A stretch of DNA of 64,000 bases from Gemmatimonadota bacterium (GTDB taxonomy: Bacteria; Gemmatimonadota; Gemmatimonadetes; Gemmatimonadales; GWC2-71-9). Below are positions 18,001 to 24,000 of this stretch, one piece after another. Made by a program: the position numbers. Positions within the stretch are counted from its first letter, which is position 1; every line of letters begins with the position of its first letter. The stretch spans positions 123,359 through 187,358 of the forward strand of contig JAZDCZ010000386.1 of assembly GCA_036679605.1 (NCBI GenBank), read 5' to 3'.

Positions 18001-21000
18001 TCAGTCGGAGCTGGGAACAGGGCACTGACCTCTTCTCATATAACCTTGCGCAGGACTGTTGTTTACAACGCTTGACGGTGGGTCGGTTTTCCGATAACCT
18101 TTCACCAGCATTTAGCCCAGACGGGCGTCGAATCGCGTTCGAGTCAACTAGATCGGGCCTTGCTCAGATCTACGTGATGGCGTCAGATGGCACCGACCAG
18201 GAGCTGTTCGCACCATTTGATTATGGGGTAACGGGCGACTCGCATAGTCCGACTTGGTCTCCCGATGGGTTGTGGTTGGCGTTTCATCGAACGGTGGCCG
18301 GAAGTCCGCAGGTTTTCTTGATGGATTCGCGGACCAGAAGTGTCCGGCAGTTGACGAGCTTTGGCCGTAATGAAGATCCATCGTGGGGGCCCGACAGTCG
18401 GCACCTTGTGTTCAAGTCGAGCCGCACGGGATCGGAGCAGGTCTGGGTGATGGATACCGACACCGGACGCGTTCGCCAGCTGACTAGAATTGGTGGTACG
18501 AGGTTTCCCAAGTGGTCTCTTCGTATAGAGAGACCTGACGAAAACTGAACTTGACTCAACGAACCTGATCTTGGAGTTACAATGCGCCTTTCCCTAGCCA
18601 CTACATTGGGCATTTCTGCCATCCTGATCGCCAGCGCCTGCGGCGGCAATCCACCACCGCCGGTCACACCCCAGCCCGATCCGGATTCCATTGCACGGGC
18701 GAACGCCCAGCGAGACTCAATTGCGCGCGAGACGGCCCGTGCAGACAGCTTGAGGCGCGTGAGGGAACGCGAGGAGCGCGTCCGCCGCCAGCGGACTACC
18801 GATTCCCTGGCGACAATCCGCCGGGAGACAGATGCCGTCCGCGCGATGATTGCCCGAAGAGTCCACTTCGATTTCGATAAATCTGCAGTCCGTGTGGGTG
18901 AGGACACCGATGTGTTGAATGAGAAGCTGGCGGTCTTGCAGGCCAATCCCGGATTGAGTATCGAGATCACCGGACACTGCGATGAGCGCGGAACCGATCA
19001 GTATAATGTTGCCCTGGGCAATAGGAGAGCGATTTCAGCCCGGAAATTCCTGACCGACCGGGGCATAGATGCATCGCGCATTACTGTCGAGTCGAGGGGT
19101 GAGGAGCAGCCGGCCGACGCGGGCCACACTGAGAGCGCCTGGGCTATGAACCGACGGTCCGAATTCACAATTACGGGTGGTGGTTCGGTTCTCAAGCGTC
19201 CTGGGATGTGAGGTCGTTTGGTGCATTTGTAGTAGCGTCCGTCGCCTTGAGCGCTTGTGCGCTCAAGGGCGATGTTCGTCGCGTTGAGAACGAAGTACAG
19301 CAACTCCGTGCTGAAATGGCCCGCGCAGATTCTGCGCGGGCCGATTTTTTTGATGTCACATTCCAACAGATAATCACGCTCCAGCAACGCCTTACGGACT
19401 CTGTTAGGCTCCAGAGTCAGCGGTTGGTGGCGTTTCAGGGCACGGTCCGAACCGACATGACAGAGGTCTTGCGGCTGCTGGTTCAAACTCAAGAACTCAC
19501 TGGCCAGAGCCAACAGCGACTCTCCGAGTTACAGGACAGGCTGGAGGAACGCGAAAGGGTCCCGGTCGTCCAGGGAGCGGTCGCCGGAGATACGTCGGGT
19601 GCGGCGATCTCTGCGGGGGATGTGCCACCTGCCTCCGAGATATACAACGTCTCGATCCAGCAACTGCGCCGCGGCAGCGTTCAGACGGCGCGCCAGGGTT
19701 TCAGATTTCTGCTGAGCAATTATCCCGACGACGAGCGGGCTGGAGATGCACTGTTTCATATCGGCGAATCATGGGAGCGCTCGGATCCCGATTCAGCTGC
19801 TGTCGCCTATGAGCTTGTTGCACAGCGCTATCAAGACTCGCCAAGAGCCCCCACGGCGCTGTACCGTCTTGGTCTTCTTGCCGAGCAACGGGGGGACCTA
19901 GAAGCAGCACAGGTGTATTACAATCGGGTTGTCAGCGGATGGCCCAGGTCGGACGCTGCTGAACTCGCCCGGGCCAAACTGAATCCGGGCCGCTAGCTAA
20001 ACCGGTGCGTCCGGCGCACTCCAAATGACTAGGAAACATCACAAGGGCGAAATGCCCTTTCTCGATCATCTCGAGGAACTGAGATGGCACATCCTGTGGA
20101 GTCTTGCCGCCCTCGTAGTAGGCTCGGCGATAGGCTTCTACACGGTGCAGCACTTCGACGTGCTGGCGTTGCTCAAGGCTCCGATCGCGCCATTCCTTCC
20201 CGAGGGCAAGCTGTTCGTCACGCGGCCCACCGAAGCATTTTTTATCACCCTCAAGCTTGCCCTGCTCGTCGGAGTCGTGCTCGCCGCACCGATCATTGCA
20301 TGGCGAGCGTGGTCGTTCCTGTCGCCGGCAATGTATGAACACGAAAAGAAGCATGTAACACCGGCCCTGATTGCAGGGATAGGACTGTTCCTGGCAGGGG
20401 CATTGATGGCATACCTGTGGGTGCTGCCGGCCGCTCTCAAGATCTTCTTCTCGTTCCAGCGGGAGGATCTCGAGTTCATCATCACAGCAAACGAGTATTT
20501 CAGTCTGGCCACCCAGATCATACTCGCGTTTGGAATCATGTTCGAACTTCCGGTTCTCATGGTGTTCCTCGCGACGATCGGGCTCGTTGGCCCCTCGGCA
20601 TTTGCCAAGAACCGGCCGTTCGCACTTGTGGTAGCAGCCGTTCTTGCCGCCATGCTCACGCCACCCGATGTGGTGTCGATGCTGATGTTGATGGCGCCGA
20701 TCGTGTTGCTTTACGAAGTCGGTATCATGATTTCGCGGGTCGTATGGAAGAAACGAGTCAACAATACAATTGCTGGCGCGGTGCTCATCCTATGCCTTTT
20801 GGGCGGTGCCACGTCCGTCAGTGCCCAAGGCGGGCAGCCACCGCCGCCGCCCCAGGGGCAGGCTGGTGTCCTGCAGGATACTGTTCCCCAGCCGATCGAC
20901 ACCGCTGCTGCGCGACTACTTGGCCTTCCCACTCAACCATCCCGCTCCTTCCCATCCGCAGACTCACTTCTTACGGCCCTGGCGGCGCTGACTGGATATG

Positions 21001-24000
21001 GAGTGACACGTTACGCCGCCGACAATCTGTCGCTGTTGACTCAGACGAGCGCCATCACGCTGAACGGACGTGCCTTGGTCGAGCGCGAGGGAAGTTTACT
21101 GGAGGCCGACTCTGTGCTGTTCTTGCAGAGCGAATGTAGAATGTTGGCGACTGGAGATCCCAAGCTCTTTGACAGGGAGACGATTTTAGTGGGCGAGGGA
21201 ATGTCATATGATACCTGTCTCAGGCGCGGAATCATCGCCAAAGGCTTTACGAGATTCAACCAACAGGGGGTAGATTGGTTCCTGAAGGGTGAGTTGGCGG
21301 TAGATTCTGCGTCCACCCGCATGTACTCGTATGAAAGCGACGTTACCTCGTGCGATCTCCCAACTCCGCACTATCACTTCGCGGCGCATAACGTCAAGTG
21401 GGTTTCCAACAACCTCATGGTAGCACGGCCCGCGGTGCTCTATGTGCGAGATGTGCCGGTATTGTGGCTTCCGTTCATGTTTCAGGACATGCGCATCGGT
21501 AGGAGAAGTGGCATCCTGGTCCCACGGTTTGGAATCAATGATCTGGTTCGTCCGAGTAGTGGCTACAAGCGCCATATAACCAATACGGGATACTACTTCG
21601 CCATCAACGATTACATGGATTTCCAGACTTCTATCGATTGGTTCTCGGAGAATTTTGTGGCGCTGAACGGTCAGTTCAGGTATCGGTGGCTCAACCAATT
21701 CGTGACTGGAAATCTTGCCCTGTCACGAATCTTCGAGTCGGGAGTGGACGGGGTGGGGGGCGCCAAATCTATGCGACTACAGTGGACGCACCAACAGAGT
21801 TTTGATCAACGCACCCGTTTGAACGCCAGCGTCGACTATGCGACGAGTGCTCGCGTTGTGGAGCGAAATTCGGTCGATCCACTCCTTCAGACGGCCACAT
21901 TGGGCAGCAGGATCAACTTCAACAAGCAGTATGACTGGGGAACGGTGACGGTTGGCGGGAGCCGCACGCAAGATCTGAGCAACAATACGGTGAGCCAGAC
22001 GCTCCCCAATCTGAGTATCTCCCCTGTCCCGATCAACTTGAGCGAGAACATCACTTGGTCTCCGTCGTTCTCATTGACGAGGGTGCAGCGACTGAGCCAA
22101 CGACCAGGCATCCCATTGCTATCGGCGCCGATAGGTGGGGTCGAGAGCGTAGACTCTCTATTTCCCGATCAGCGGACTCTGTCCGTTAGAGTCAATACCC
22201 CGCTTAGAGTCGGTCGGTGGAATCTGCAGAACGATTTCAGCTTCAGCGACTTCACGACGGACCGTCCGCCGCCGCCGCTCACAATCATCGATCCCGACGA
22301 CTCAAGCCAGGTCACGACCCGGTTTTTCGGAGAGGACTTCAACTCGAGCCTTGACTGGAATACGGGGATCAATCTGCCGATCCTGCTGTCGAGTACATGG
22401 AAGCTACAGCCAACACTGGGCATCCAGAACAAGACATCGGGCCCGTTCATGATACGAAACCGTTTTTCCGGTGGTAATTGGGTTAGCCAGGGGAAGAGGC
22501 TGTCGTTTGGTGCCAGCATCTCGCCGACGCTGTTCGGTTTCCTCCCCGGCGTGGCCGGGTTATCCCGCATCAGACATGCAGTATCTCCGCGGGTCAGCTG
22601 GAATCTCAGGCCATCGGCAACGGTGCCTGAGGACTTTGCCAGGGCCCTTGCCGGCCCTTCTGCTACTCTGCAGTTGAAGAGTCCTACGGTTCATACCGTC
22701 AGCTTCGGTCTGTCGCAGACGTTTGAAGGAAAACTCAAGCCCCCACCAGACGACACGACGTCGGATATCCGTAACTTGCCCAAGGTCAAAGTGCTGCGTA
22801 TTCAGACATCGTCGATCCAGTATGATTTCGAGCAAGCGAAGAAACCCGGAAGGAATGGCTGGCGCACGCAGTCGTTGCGGAACAGCTTGACTAGCGATCT
22901 ACTGCGTGGTTTTACGCTTTCGGCGTCCCACGATCTGTGGGATGGCCCCGTGGGTTTTGACAGTTCGTCTTTTAGTCCCTTTCTCACATCGGTGTCGGCG
23001 CGCTTCAGCCTAACTGGACCGACGATCACCAACGTCTTGGCCATGCTGACGGGCGGAAACACCAAGCCCGAACCGGAAGAGGAGTTCGATGACGAAGACG
23101 ACTTGCTGCAGCCTCAGGGCACGGCGACTGGTCCTCCGCGTGGACTCGATCCGGCCATCGACCGACTCGGTGCGCGCCGTCTGCCCGGGCGCGGTTTTCG
23201 TGCCGGCATCACCTACGACGACAAACGCAGGCGTCCGCGTCGTACTTCGGATTCGACTGTCATCGAGACACCGGCTGAGCGCACTGTTGGGTTGCAGGTT
23301 GGTTTCTCTCCCACCGCAGCTTGGTCGGTATCGTGGAACACGCAGTACAACGCAACGACAAAGGACTTCGGACAGCACATAGTTAGGATGGACCGCGAGA
23401 TGCATCGATGGCGGGCGACCTTCTCATTTGTGAAGGCCCCCAACGGCAACTTTGCCTTTAACTTTTTCATCACTCTCACCGACCAGCCGGAACTGAAGTT
23501 CCAGTACGATCAACGCACTGTCAGGCAGGGACGGCGCTAGGCGATCCCTGTCCCAAATGCAGGACATTTATTTCCCAAGGCCTAGTGGGTAATTACTTGT
23601 AAAACAATAGGTTACGAGTTCATAGCTGGTTGGCACGCGATCTGCCTCCGTTAGCGACAGAACGGTCAGAGACTGGGAGGCTTGAGATGCGACGAGTACT
23701 GCTCGTGCCATTGGTCGGGATTCTTGCAGCTGCCTGCGGCAATGATTCAGTCAACGACATTGTCGTAACTGAGTTGGAACCGCCGGCGTCACTAACCACT
23801 ACGAGTCTCAACGGCGCGATCCATTTGGCGTGGACCGACAATTCCTTTGCCAATGCGCCGGCCGACCTGTTTCTGCAGTACAGGGTGTACAGCACTGGTT
23901 TCGATATCGACATCGACGGCGGGCTGTGTGACCAGACCTGGGATCAGGAAGGATCAACCATCGCACCGGAGTTCTTGGTCGGCGCGCTGACCAACGGAGT

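What a model noticed while it worked through the whole genome (the two positions that open the first line are those of the whole stretch)
20052..23540. TatC fused in one reading frame to an LptD-like outer-membrane barrel protein
Gene g04600 (1162 aa), the last gene of the tol-pal cluster, joins a complete inner-membrane TatC (residues 5-216, six hydrophobic spans) to an LptD_2-type outer-membrane protein (457-928 and on) with no stop between them. The junction (about residues 226-258) has the n-h-c layout of a cleavable signal peptide (KKR, a hydrophobic run, VSA-QG) followed by a proline-rich linker, so the product is either cut by signal peptidase into TatC and a secreted barrel protein, or the barrel part is started internally, or one chain spans both membranes. 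tatC directly upstream of this lptD_2-like gene is the rule in the whole phylum; the in-frame fusion is a trait of this family.
Evidence so far: Pfam TatC[5-216]-LptD_2[457-657]-LptD_2[811-928] on one call; NCBIfam TatC. Hydropathy: windows >1.6 only up to residue 241. A 401-aa probe across the junction (residues 120-520) matched in 41 of 41 Gemmatimonadota genomes searched, G000 included: in this family 9 of 15 other genomes give one unbroken match over probe 1-401 in an open frame of 829-1241 aa, and 2 more (G047, G064) two matches in one open frame of 1204 and 1387 aa, so 11 of 15 are fused; in the 25 genomes of other families the two halves match next to each other on one strand in separate frames of about 270-340 aa and 700-1290 aa (one, G642, shares a frame only through a TAG). 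Paper search TatC+fusion+outer membrane+Gemmatimon [...]
(Added by a program. Inside this text positions count along the whole contig: contig position 123,359 is position 1 of the stretch shown here. "Call 12" and the like, gene names such as g00115 and contig names such as C1 are that model's own, and its searches are not shown. The text may have been shortened before it was handed on; [...] marks where a part breaks off. The agent that wrote the report below was given it as the finding of a first reader that could run no searches.)

Follow-up and report, generated by a model that had tools for sequence, protein, structure and literature searches.

The report
TatC and LptD encoded as one protein
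In this Gemmatimonadales family the inner-membrane Tat export subunit TatC and the outer-membrane lipopolysaccharide inserter LptD are made from one gene, joined through LptD's own export signal, so the product is most likely cut in two by signal peptidase.

Summary
Window 20025-23540 (+) is one open frame of 1171 aa (the annotated start is 20052). It holds a full TatC, then an n-h-c signal-peptide-like segment ending VSA|Q268, a Pro-rich linker, and a complete LptD (beta-jellyroll plus large barrel).

The fusion is not an assembly error:
- 51 of 60 other genera of the family carry it.
- An independent assembly reproduces it.
- A 91%-identical strain keeps the frame.

Outside the family tatC and lptD are adjacent but separate in 23 of 25 genomes inspected. 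There lptD starts with the homologous N-terminal signal peptide.

In 58 fused genes the junction keeps the signal peptidase I pattern: -1 is A/G/S, -3 is A/L/V/S/T, -2 and -4 are free, and +1 is always Q. No internal start codon is conserved. On the gene tree the fusion arose at least three times and was undone at least about eight times inside the family.

Best reading (about 0.65) is a polyprotein. TatC inserts with its C-terminus in the cytoplasm, the seventh hydrophobic segment starts Sec export of the LptD part, and signal peptidase I cuts before Q268. That would give TatC with an extra helix and mature LptD.

Cleavage is inferred, not shown. I found no description in print.

The parts
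20025..23540 (+). Whole tatC-lptD open reading frame. It is 1171 aa from the ATG at 20025. An alternative ATG at 20052 gives 1162 aa and has AAGGG a few bases upstream.
20064..20699 (+). TatC domain, residues 14-225. It is a full-length match to the family; six helices are modelled up to about residue 245.
   Evidence: Pfam and NCBIfam; AlphaFold model with pLDDT about 80-90 in this part; Foldseek to solved TatC 9e01_A and 4b4a, target TM-score 0.81-0.82
20727..20729 (+). ATG for M235, the possible internal start. It is present only in G000 and same-genus G107.
20748..20756 (+). Basic cluster K242-K243-R244. This is TatC's cytoplasmic tail, which also serves as the n-region of the internal signal peptide.
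20769..20807 (+). Hydrophobic h-region, residues 249-261. It acts as a seventh membrane span.
20808..20828 (+). c-region A262-A267 and the invariant Q268. The predicted signal peptidase I site is V265-S266-A267 | Q268.
   Evidence: (Q268 at 90% or more across 98 sequences)
20829..20891 (+). Pro/Gln-rich linker, variable in length and disordered in the model (pLDDT below 50 over residues 247-289).
20892..21011 (+). Conserved N-terminal motif of the mature LptD, residues about 290-329. Two short helices are modelled here.
21006..21494 (+). LptD N-terminal beta-jellyroll, residues about 328-490.
   Evidence: Model; profile matches to solved LptD and to LptA/LptH; Foldseek
21573..23519 (+). LptD beta-barrel, residues about 517-1165.
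   Evidence: Pfam LptD_2; model; Foldseek to LptDE structures, E 4.6e-27
23547..23573 (+). Weak terminator-like hairpin with a T-run just after the stop codon.
   Evidence: 5 such sites found in the region against 3.4 expected, so weak
15258..19996 (+). Upstream tolQ, tolR, tolA-like, tolB, pal and ybgF-like genes. The last one ends 28 nt before the ATG at 20025.
32903..33049 (+). tatA/B/E-family gene, the partner of TatC, about 9 kb downstream of the fusion's stop.
   Evidence: contig position 156261-156407 minus 123358

Best explanation
The gene is a genuine, selected fusion of tatC to lptD, here the LptD_2-type LPS-assembly barrel. It most likely works as a membrane polyprotein. TatC is inserted with its N- and C-termini in the cytoplasm; this topology is established for TatC and was not tested here. 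Its basic C-terminal tail (K242-K243-R244) serves as the n-region for the next hydrophobic segment (residues 249-261). That segment is the former LptD signal peptide. It inserts N-in/C-out and starts Sec translocation of the roughly 900-residue LptD part. Signal peptidase I then cuts after V265-S266-A267. This would release mature LptD starting at Q268 for chaperone and BAM delivery to the outer membrane. It would leave TatC with an extra, seventh C-terminal helix. Shown here: the fusion, its conservation, the homology of the junction to LptD's signal peptide, the conserved cleavage-site pattern, the identity of both halves, and the presence of SPase I, TatA, Tat substrates and Lpt/Lpx genes. 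Inferred: the cleavage itself, the topology, and co-translational delivery.
For: (1) The frame is real. It is one ORF. An independent assembly contig of run X1 is identical over all 3516 bases, although X1 may be the source sample. A 91%-identical strain in X2 (314 differences) has only two compensating indel pairs, none at the junction, and 37 of its 40 listed differences fall on third codon positions. (2) It is conserved: 51 of 60 other genera of the family are fused, at probe identities down to 44% in that sample. (3) The junction is LptD's signal peptide. In unfused relatives tatC ends about 25-30 aa after TM6. lptD starts next to it in another frame with an n-h-c peptide that ends small-x-small|Q in 21 of the 25 unfused genes examined (three f6 genes lack it and one was mis-sited). 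(4) The cleavage pattern is kept in 58 of 58 fused genes. Position -1 is A51/G5/S2 (0.64 bits), -3 is L25/A24/V5/S2/T2 (1.69 bits), -2 and -4 are free (3.2 and 3.1 bits), and G/A/P sit at -5/-6. The +1 Q was chosen by pattern in that script, but it is an invariant aligned column and is at least 90% conserved across 98 fused and unfused sequences. (5) The segment is not lengthened into an anchor: median 21 aa against 20 aa. (6) +1 Q is this genome's commonest residue after A-x-A in N-terminal signal-like peptides: 91 of 464 (20%) against a 3.3% background, by a crude scan. (7) No internal start is conserved. M235 occurs in one genus only. Of 58 genes, 11 lack any ATG/GTG/TTG in the tail, and the GTG share of Val codons is 57% there against 55% elsewhere. 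(8) Both halves are needed. The fused gene is the only TatC match in 5 of 5 fused genomes checked, two of them single-contig. The genome has tatA and 15 candidate twin-arginine signal peptides. LptD_2 is found only here and classical LptD not at all, while LptF/G and LpxC are present. (9) The halves work apart. On the LptD tree the state needs at least 11 changes, with separate or unlinked genes nested inside fused clades. (10) A signal peptidase I gene is present.
Against: There is no protein-level evidence of any kind, and no RNA run holds the sequence. The conserved -3/-1/+1 pattern could in principle be kept for another reason; Q268 is also conserved as part of LptD itself. G000 itself does have an in-frame ATG (M235) that would give a normal signal peptide. 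Most fused genes have some GTG in or near TM6, so internal initiation cannot be excluded sequence by sequence. The AlphaFold model is uninformative at the junction: pLDDT is below 50 over residues 247-289, and one long helix is drawn through 216-258. The effect of a retained seventh helix on TatC function is unknown. G000 is a poor bin (434 contigs, 6.3% contamination) and carries a second, partial tatC on a 3.2-kb contig.
Confidence: 0.65

Rival explanations
1. Two proteins come from one frame by internal translation initiation. Ribosomes start again near the end of tatC (M235 in G000, GTG or other codons elsewhere) and make an ordinary LptD precursor with an N-terminal signal peptide. On this view the fusion is only a lost stop codon, and full-length product is a minor or useless by-product.
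For: G000 and same-genus G107 have an ATG at the right place, giving M-I-S-R-V-V-W-K-K-R followed by the h-region. Of 58 fused genes, 47 have at least one ATG/GTG/TTG between TM6 and the h-region. Unfused relatives start lptD at or before the tatC stop, so coupling is ancestral.
Against: No start codon is conserved in position. Eleven of 58 fused genes have none in the tail. GTG is not enriched among Val codons there (57% against 55%). No Shine-Dalgarno-like motif precedes M235 by my loose pattern. No + strand promoter-like site lies inside the gene. Even with an internal start, ribosomes translating tatC have no stop and must read on into lptD, so the full-length chain is made anyway and still needs handling.
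Confidence: 0.12
2. The chain is not cut. TatC in the inner membrane stays covalently tied, through the seventh span and the Pro-rich linker, to LptD in the outer membrane. This would physically couple the Tat translocon, or the tol-pal division site, to the LPS insertion site.
For: There is one frame with no stop. About 57 residues lie between Q268 and the jellyroll, about 20 nm if fully extended, and part of this is Pro-rich. The N-terminal edge of the LptD jellyroll faces the inner membrane in solved LptDE structures; this is general knowledge, not tested here.
Against: The textbook -3/-1 pattern with free -2/-4 is kept in 58 of 58 genes. The hydrophobic run is no longer than in cleaved N-terminal versions. 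Linker length is very variable: the distance from TM6 to the site runs from 34 to 72 aa, and the linkers themselves vary. Repeated loss of the fusion, including complete unlinking of the two genes in G007, G012, G112 and G207, shows that no covalent tie is required.
Confidence: 0.1
3. The fusion is an artefact or a decaying gene: an assembly or sequencing frameshift that joined two genes, or a pseudogene.
For: G000 is a fragmented bin of 434 contigs with 6.3% contamination. One relative (G050) has an in-frame TAA in the LptD part.
Against: The same junction occurs in 51 of 60 genera, including single-contig genomes. An independent assembly is identical, and a divergent strain keeps the frame with mostly third-position changes. 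Both domains score full length with a confident fold. It is the only TatC and the only LptD.
Confidence: 0.02

Closest known systems
Bradyrhizobium japonicum FbcH, a cytochrome b/c1 precursor made from one gene and split at an internal signal peptide (Thony-Meyer et al., PNAS 1991). This is recalled; my two searches for it found nothing in the held library.
   Same: It is a polytopic inner-membrane protein whose C-terminus is followed, in the same ORF, by a signal-peptide-like span and an exported protein. The precedent shows that a bacterial signal peptidase can cut such an internal site.
   Different: There both products stay in one inner-membrane complex. Here the products belong to unrelated machines (Tat export and LPS insertion), and the second is a beta-barrel of about 900 residues bound for the outer membrane. 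Cleavage is shown there and only inferred here.
Ordinary adjacent tatC and lptD (LptD_2-type) genes of other Gemmatimonadota.
   Same: The gene order and strand are the same, behind the same kind of neighbours. The TatC tail has the same basic cluster. The LptD signal peptide ends small-x-small|Q in most.
   Different: There a stop codon, a frame change and a separate start lie between the genes. In the fused form about 15-30 codons of TatC tail, the spacer and the LptD start and n-region are gone, and TatC's own basic cluster serves as the n-region.
Classical LptD of Proteobacteria (Pfam PF04453; solved LptDE complexes such as 4q35, 5iv9 and 8h1s).
   Same: It has an N-terminal beta-jellyroll plus a very large barrel. 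Foldseek gives E 4.6e-27 over about 900 columns. The profile matches solved LptD at E 7e-15 and LptA at E 1e-5.
   Different: Sequence identity is only 11-13%. PF04453 is not matched, and the NCBIfam LptD equivalogs lie far below cut-off (28 bits against 683). The protein belongs to LptD_2, the family that rang in Bacteroides thetaiotaomicron among the controls. An LptE partner was not looked for.
The Bacteroidetes Q-rule: Gln at +1 of signal peptidase I sites, cyclised to pyroglutamate (PMC5837995; I read the abstract and passages).
   Same: Q is invariant at +1 of the junction site. By a crude scan of this genome, +1 Q follows A-x-A in 20% of signal-like N-termini.
   Different: That paper did not analyse Gemmatimonadetes (0 occurrences of the name). 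No PF05096 glutaminyl cyclase was found in this genome, and the M28-type cyclase was not searched for. Pyroglutamate formation here is speculation.

Membership tests
TatC (PF00902 / TIGR00945) | Full-length match over the curated cut-offs | tested here: met
   PF00902 scores 206 bits against a cut-off of 25.1, covering profile 1-208 of 208. TIGR00945 scores 199 bits against 132.7.
TatC (PF00902 / TIGR00945) | Six-helix TatC fold | tested here: met
   Foldseek matches 9e01_A, 4b4a and 4hts with target TM-score 0.81-0.82 and rmsd 3.4-3.5 A over about 230 columns. The model has pLDDT about 80-90 in this part.
TatC (PF00902 / TIGR00945) | Works with TatA/B and twin-arginine substrates in the same genome | tested here: met
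   tatA lies at window 32903-33049. A pattern scan finds 15 candidate twin-arginine signal peptides. The fused gene is the sole TatC match in 5 of 5 fused genomes checked. G000 also has a partial second tatC on a 3.2-kb contig with transposase-like ORFs; it may be bin contamination.
TatC (PF00902 / TIGR00945) | Free cytoplasmic C-terminus after TM6 | tested here: not met
   The chain continues into a seventh hydrophobic span and LptD. After the proposed cut, TatC would end in the periplasm with an extra helix.
LptD (LPS-assembly outer-membrane protein) | Match to an LptD family model | tested here: met
   PF19838 LptD_2 scores 141 bits against a cut-off of 22.5. It is the only such match in the genome.
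LptD (LPS-assembly outer-membrane protein) | Match to classical LptD (PF04453, NCBIfam equivalogs) | tested here: not met
   PF04453 finds nothing in the genome. PRK03761 scores 28 bits against a cut-off of 683.
LptD (LPS-assembly outer-membrane protein) | N-terminal LptA-like beta-jellyroll followed by a very large beta-barrel | tested here: met
   The model has strands over 328-488 and then 517-1165. Foldseek ranks 1-15 are all LptD chains, E 4.6e-27 to 6.9e-21 over 854-949 columns. The profile hits solved LptD, LptA and LptH. I did not count the strands.
LptD (LPS-assembly outer-membrane protein) | Rest of the LPS pathway present | tested here: met
   Two LptF/G genes and LpxC are present. 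LptE, LptA and LptC were not searched.
Sec signal peptide cleaved by signal peptidase I | n-h-c layout with small residues at -1 and -3 | tested here: met
   The junction reads KKR, a 13-residue hydrophobic run, then VSA|Q. The pattern holds in 58 of 58 fused genes. No SignalP-type predictor was available.
Sec signal peptide cleaved by signal peptidase I | Located at the N-terminus of the precursor | tested here: not met
   It lies at residues 242-267, behind a six-span protein. It is N-terminal only in the unfused relatives.
Sec signal peptide cleaved by signal peptidase I | The peptidase is encoded in the genome | tested here: met
   Peptidase_S26 is matched at E 8.7e-46 in a 246-aa frame on C212.
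Sec signal peptide cleaved by signal peptidase I | Cleavage actually occurs | not testable with these tools
   No proteomic or N-terminal data were available.

The most novel reading that the evidence does not exclude
The chain is not always cut, or not at once. A fraction stays as a single polypeptide anchored in the inner membrane by TatC and ending as the LptD barrel in the outer membrane. This would tether the LPS insertion site to the Tat and Tol-Pal machinery encoded in the same cluster. Short of that, LptD in this family would be the first natural outer-membrane barrel that is obligatorily delivered co-translationally as the tail of an SRP-targeted membrane protein, with its signal peptide kept for life as a seventh helix of TatC.
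Probability: 0.1. Interest if true: 0.85.

Novelty: new variant of a known kind. Interest (0 to 1): 0.6.

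Why it matters
Both halves appear to be the organism's only copies of core envelope machines: the Tat receptor and the LPS inserter. 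Making them from one chain has several consequences. A large outer-membrane beta-barrel would enter the Sec channel as the continuation of a polytopic inner-membrane protein. Its signal peptide would never be released. TatC would carry an extra helix next to TM5 and TM6, which I recall as the helices where TatB and TatA bind. The family offers a natural series of fused, re-split and unlinked versions. This series could be used to test three things: how signal peptidase handles internal sites in bacteria, whether co-translational delivery of a barrel protein is tolerated or useful, and why tatC and lptD stay together behind tol-pal across a whole phylum. For annotation, these 1170-aa genes should be named as tatC-lptD fusions.

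Tried and rejected
- **RNA evidence.** The look-up of sequencing runs listed no RNA holder. This says nothing about expression.
- **Literature.** TatC + LptD + fusion gave 9 papers, none relevant by title or abstract. Gemmatimonadetes + TatC gave 26 papers. In the TatC diversity paper PMC3827258, 'fused' and 'fusion' occur 0 times. PF19838, LptD_2 and 'TatC-LptD' gave only reference-number artefacts. Searches for 'internal signal peptide' and for fbcH gave nothing usable.
- **Database names.** Six fused cluster representatives carry no name.
- **Glutaminyl cyclase.** PF05096 was not found in a 96.5%-complete bin. Bacteroides does not ring for that family either, so this is uninformative.
- **Model at the junction.** The AlphaFold model is of low confidence over residues 247-289, so it says nothing on where a seventh helix would sit.
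- **GC content.** The small contig with the second tatC has 60.5% GC against 58.5% for the window's contig, which does not settle whether it is foreign.
- **Long frames outside the family.** I first took the 1260-1290-aa open frames outside the family as possible fusions. Fetching 20 of them showed that 18 are separate genes.
- **Internal start scan.** My first scan, which reached into TM6, found a possible start in 56 of 58 genes. This is mostly the conserved TatC methionines, so I re-counted the tail alone.
- **Site finder on unfused genes.** It failed or mis-sited on 4 of 25 (L068, L069, L070, L071).
- **Not used.** The second structure job, complex prediction and the search for homologous proteins.

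Full report
**The observation.** Window 20025-23540 (+) is a single open frame of 1171 aa, kept as P0001.
- Pfam finds TatC at residues 14-225, covering the whole 208-position profile (E 5.7e-61), and LptD_2 from residue 466 (E 6.2e-41, two stretches).
- NCBIfam's tatC equivalog TIGR00945 is passed at 199 bits against 132.7. Classical LptD equivalogs score only 26-28 bits.
- Upstream lie tolQ, tolR, a TonB_2/TolA-like gene, tolB, pal and a TPR ybgF-like gene. The last ends 28 nt before the first ATG.
- A weak hairpin with a T-run follows the stop codon, and no + strand promoter-like site lies inside the gene.

**The fusion is not an artefact.** G000 is a fragmented bin: 434 contigs, 96.5% complete, 6.3% contaminated. 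I therefore checked the frame in three other ways.
- A probe across the junction (P0001 residues 129-529) was run on 60 other genomes of the family, one per genus. It gave one unbroken match without a stop in 45. It gave two matches that I verified lie in one frame in 5. In G050 the junction is fused but a TAA lies about 135 codons later. Four are adjacent but separate (G035, G044, G001, G010). Two are unlinked (G007, G012), 2 lie at contig ends (G011, G014) and 1 has no match (G008). That is 51 of 60 fused, at probe identities down to 44% in that sample.
- Logan's independent assembly of run X1 holds the whole 3516 bases with no difference. X1 may be the source sample.
- A 91%-identical strain in run X2 differs at 314 places. 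It has only two compensating indel pairs, far from the junction. Of its 40 listed differences, 37 fall on third codon positions of this frame.

Record titles of two close relatives name Gemmatimonadales and Gemmatimonadota.

**What the two halves are.** An AlphaFold model built on 98 aligned sequences has mean pLDDT 84.4. It shows a helical TatC part up to about residue 245, a low-confidence stretch over 247-289, two short helices, a beta-sandwich over 328-488 and a large barrel over 517-1165.
- Foldseek ranks 1-15 are all LptD chains of solved LptDE complexes (E 4.6e-27 to 6.9e-21, 854-949 columns). TatC structures follow with target TM-scores of 0.81-0.82.
- The family profile hits solved LptD at E 7e-15 and 8e-12, and LptA/LptH.
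- In the genome LptD_2 matches only this gene and classical LptD matches nothing. LptF/G and LpxC are present. The C-terminal part is therefore the organism's LptD, not a protein of unknown function.
- The genome has tatA inside the window and 15 candidate twin-arginine signal peptides by a pattern scan.
- In 5 of 5 fused genomes checked, two of them single contigs and one of the same genus, the fused gene is the only TatC match.
- G000 also has a partial tatC, 32% identical over the probe, with a long insert. It sits on a 3.2-kb contig beside transposase- and integrase-like frames. Because the same-genus genome lacks it, I read it as probable bin contamination. GC content does not settle this.

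**The junction.** In 47 aligned fused sequences the order is the same. TM6 of TatC (ending ...L-Y-E-x-G/S-I) comes first. Then follow a basic cluster, an uncharged run, a small-x-small motif, an invariant Q, a Pro-rich linker of variable length, and a conserved motif before the jellyroll.

In 58 fused genes the positions around the site behave as follows:

| Position | Residues | Entropy (bits) |
|---|---|---|
| -1 | A 51, G 5, S 2 | 0.64 |
| -3 | L 25, A 24, V 5, S 2, T 2 | 1.69 |
| -2 | free | 3.18 |
| -4 | free | 3.07 |
| -5 / -6 | G, A or P common | 2.46 / 1.97 |
| +1 | Q 58 | 0 |

The script picked the site by a small-residue-then-Q pattern. The Q column is nevertheless invariant in the independent alignment, and it is at least 90% conserved across 98 fused and unfused sequences. 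This is the classical -3/-1 rule for signal peptidase I. A Peptidase_S26 gene is present.

**Comparison with unfused relatives.** I fetched 20 loci from seven other families. Eighteen have separate genes. tatC stops 25-30 residues after TM6, following the same basic cluster. lptD starts beside or overlapping that stop in another frame, with an N-terminal signal peptide. In most it ends in the same small-x-small|Q.
- Five genomes of the three most distant families also have the tatC half 69-282 nt upstream of the lptD half on the same strand, in separate frames.
- So tatC lies directly upstream of lptD in 25 of 25 non-family genomes inspected. G222 has a gap of about 870 nt.
- The hydrophobic segment of the fusion is the former LptD signal peptide. 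TatC's own basic tail has taken the place of its n-region.
- The distance from the last basic residue to the site is 21 aa (median, range 17-39) in fused genes and 20 aa in 23 unfused genes. The finder failed or mis-sited on 4 of 25 unfused genes. The segment has therefore not been lengthened into a permanent anchor.
- A crude scan of the genome's own N-terminal signal-like peptides finds Q after A-x-A in 91 of 464 cases (20% against a 3.3% background). Q is the commonest residue there, so VSA|Q looks like an ordinary site for this organism.

**Internal start.** The ATG for M235 (20727-20729) would give a normal signal peptide, but it exists only in G000 and its same-genus relative.
- Of 58 fused genes, 11 have no ATG, GTG or TTG between the end of TM6 and the hydrophobic run.
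- GTG is not enriched among Val codons there: 57% against 55% in the flanks.
- A wider scan into TM6 finds candidate codons in 56 of 58 genes. These are largely the conserved TatC methionines.
- Internal initiation is thus not a conserved feature, though it cannot be excluded for G000.
- In any case, ribosomes that translate tatC meet no stop. The full-length chain must be made and dealt with.

**History.** I built a FastTree tree of the LptD part with 85 rows, leaving out L011 and L017 as too short. I had deliberately fetched every unfused family member that I saw.
- The family falls in a starred clade of 66 rows, together with one f3 row in an unresolved fork. Of these, 54 are fused, 8 separate and 4 unlinked.
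- The three states need at least 11 changes on the tree.
- Fusions outside the family (G133 in f2, G215 in f4) are nested among separate genes. Two further fused 50%-identity cluster representatives (P0013, P0014) have TatC tails resembling the TatC sequences of f4 and f8 more than this family's.
- Separate or unlinked genes inside the family are nested among fused ones, sometimes within one genus (g8, g11, g13, g14).
- Some 'separate' calls in MAGs may be frameshift errors. G035, however, is a single-contig genome.
- Fusion and fission have both happened repeatedly, which argues that the two halves work independently.

**Mechanism.** TatC's N- and C-termini are cytoplasmic (established knowledge). 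A following span with a basic cluster on its N-side must therefore insert N-in/C-out, exactly as a signal peptide does. It would start Sec translocation of the LptD part. Signal peptidase I would then cut before Q268, releasing LptD to the periplasmic chaperones and BAM. TatC would be left with a seventh helix.
- I give this reading 0.65. Cleavage, topology and co-translational delivery are inferred.
- The nearest precedent I know is the Bradyrhizobium FbcH cytochrome b/c1 precursor. I recall it, and it was not found in the library.
- Rivals: an internal start as the main route (0.12), an uncleaved chain across both membranes (0.10), an artefact (0.02). The remainder is for something unforeseen, such as another protease.

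**Novelty.** Four searches of the held library aimed at this fusion found no description of a TatC-LptD fusion. Papers outside the library and supplements were not seen. I rate it a new variant of a known kind: a signal-peptidase-processed membrane polyprotein, here joining two unrelated envelope machines of different membranes.

**Unpublished genomes.** The tool flagged some genomes as unpublished.
- G217 (L046) is one of the 58 junctions and one tree row.
- G014 is counted only as undeterminable.
- G104 and G139 appear only in the table.

No conclusion depends on them.

Noticed in passing
G000 whole genome: Gln is the commonest residue after A-x-A in N-terminal signal-like peptides: 91 of 464, or 20%, against a 3.3% background. 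This is a Q-rule-like habit in a Gemmatimonadales genome. The Q-rule paper did not analyse this phylum, and no PF05096 glutaminyl cyclase was found.
   Followed up: partly
G000:C315 (locus L002): A second, partial tatC with a long loop insert sits on a 3.2-kb contig next to transposase- and integrase-like frames. The bin is 6.7 Mb, against 3.7 Mb for the same-genus genome G107, so it is probably mixed.
   Followed up: partly
window 23630-24583 (+): A 317-aa ORF directly after the fusion has no Pfam match.
   Followed up: no
window 24667-29101 (+): A histidine-utilisation cluster follows: aromatic amino acid (histidine) ammonia-lyase, urocanase and an imidazolonepropionase-like amidohydrolase.
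   Followed up: no
window 20892-21011; loci L010-L057: A conserved motif, roughly L-D-T-A-x-A-R-x-L-G-L-P-T-x-P-S-R-x-F-P, precedes the LptD jellyroll in this family and in f3. Other families have a different stretch there before the shared D-S-V-M-x-x-L-L motif. Its role is unknown.
   Followed up: no
L076 (G222): About 870 nt lie between the tatC stop and the lptD signal peptide, unlike every other genome inspected. The content of the insert was not examined.
   Followed up: no
L011 (G050): The junction is fused, but an in-frame TAA lies about 135 codons into the LptD part. It could be a sequencing error, a pseudogene or recoding; this was not resolved.
   Followed up: no
L069-L071 (family f6): The LptD signal peptides of this family lack the small-Q motif. 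They read ...G-A-T/V-E-T-A-R-A-A-P... instead, and a long acidic repeat region follows.
   Followed up: no
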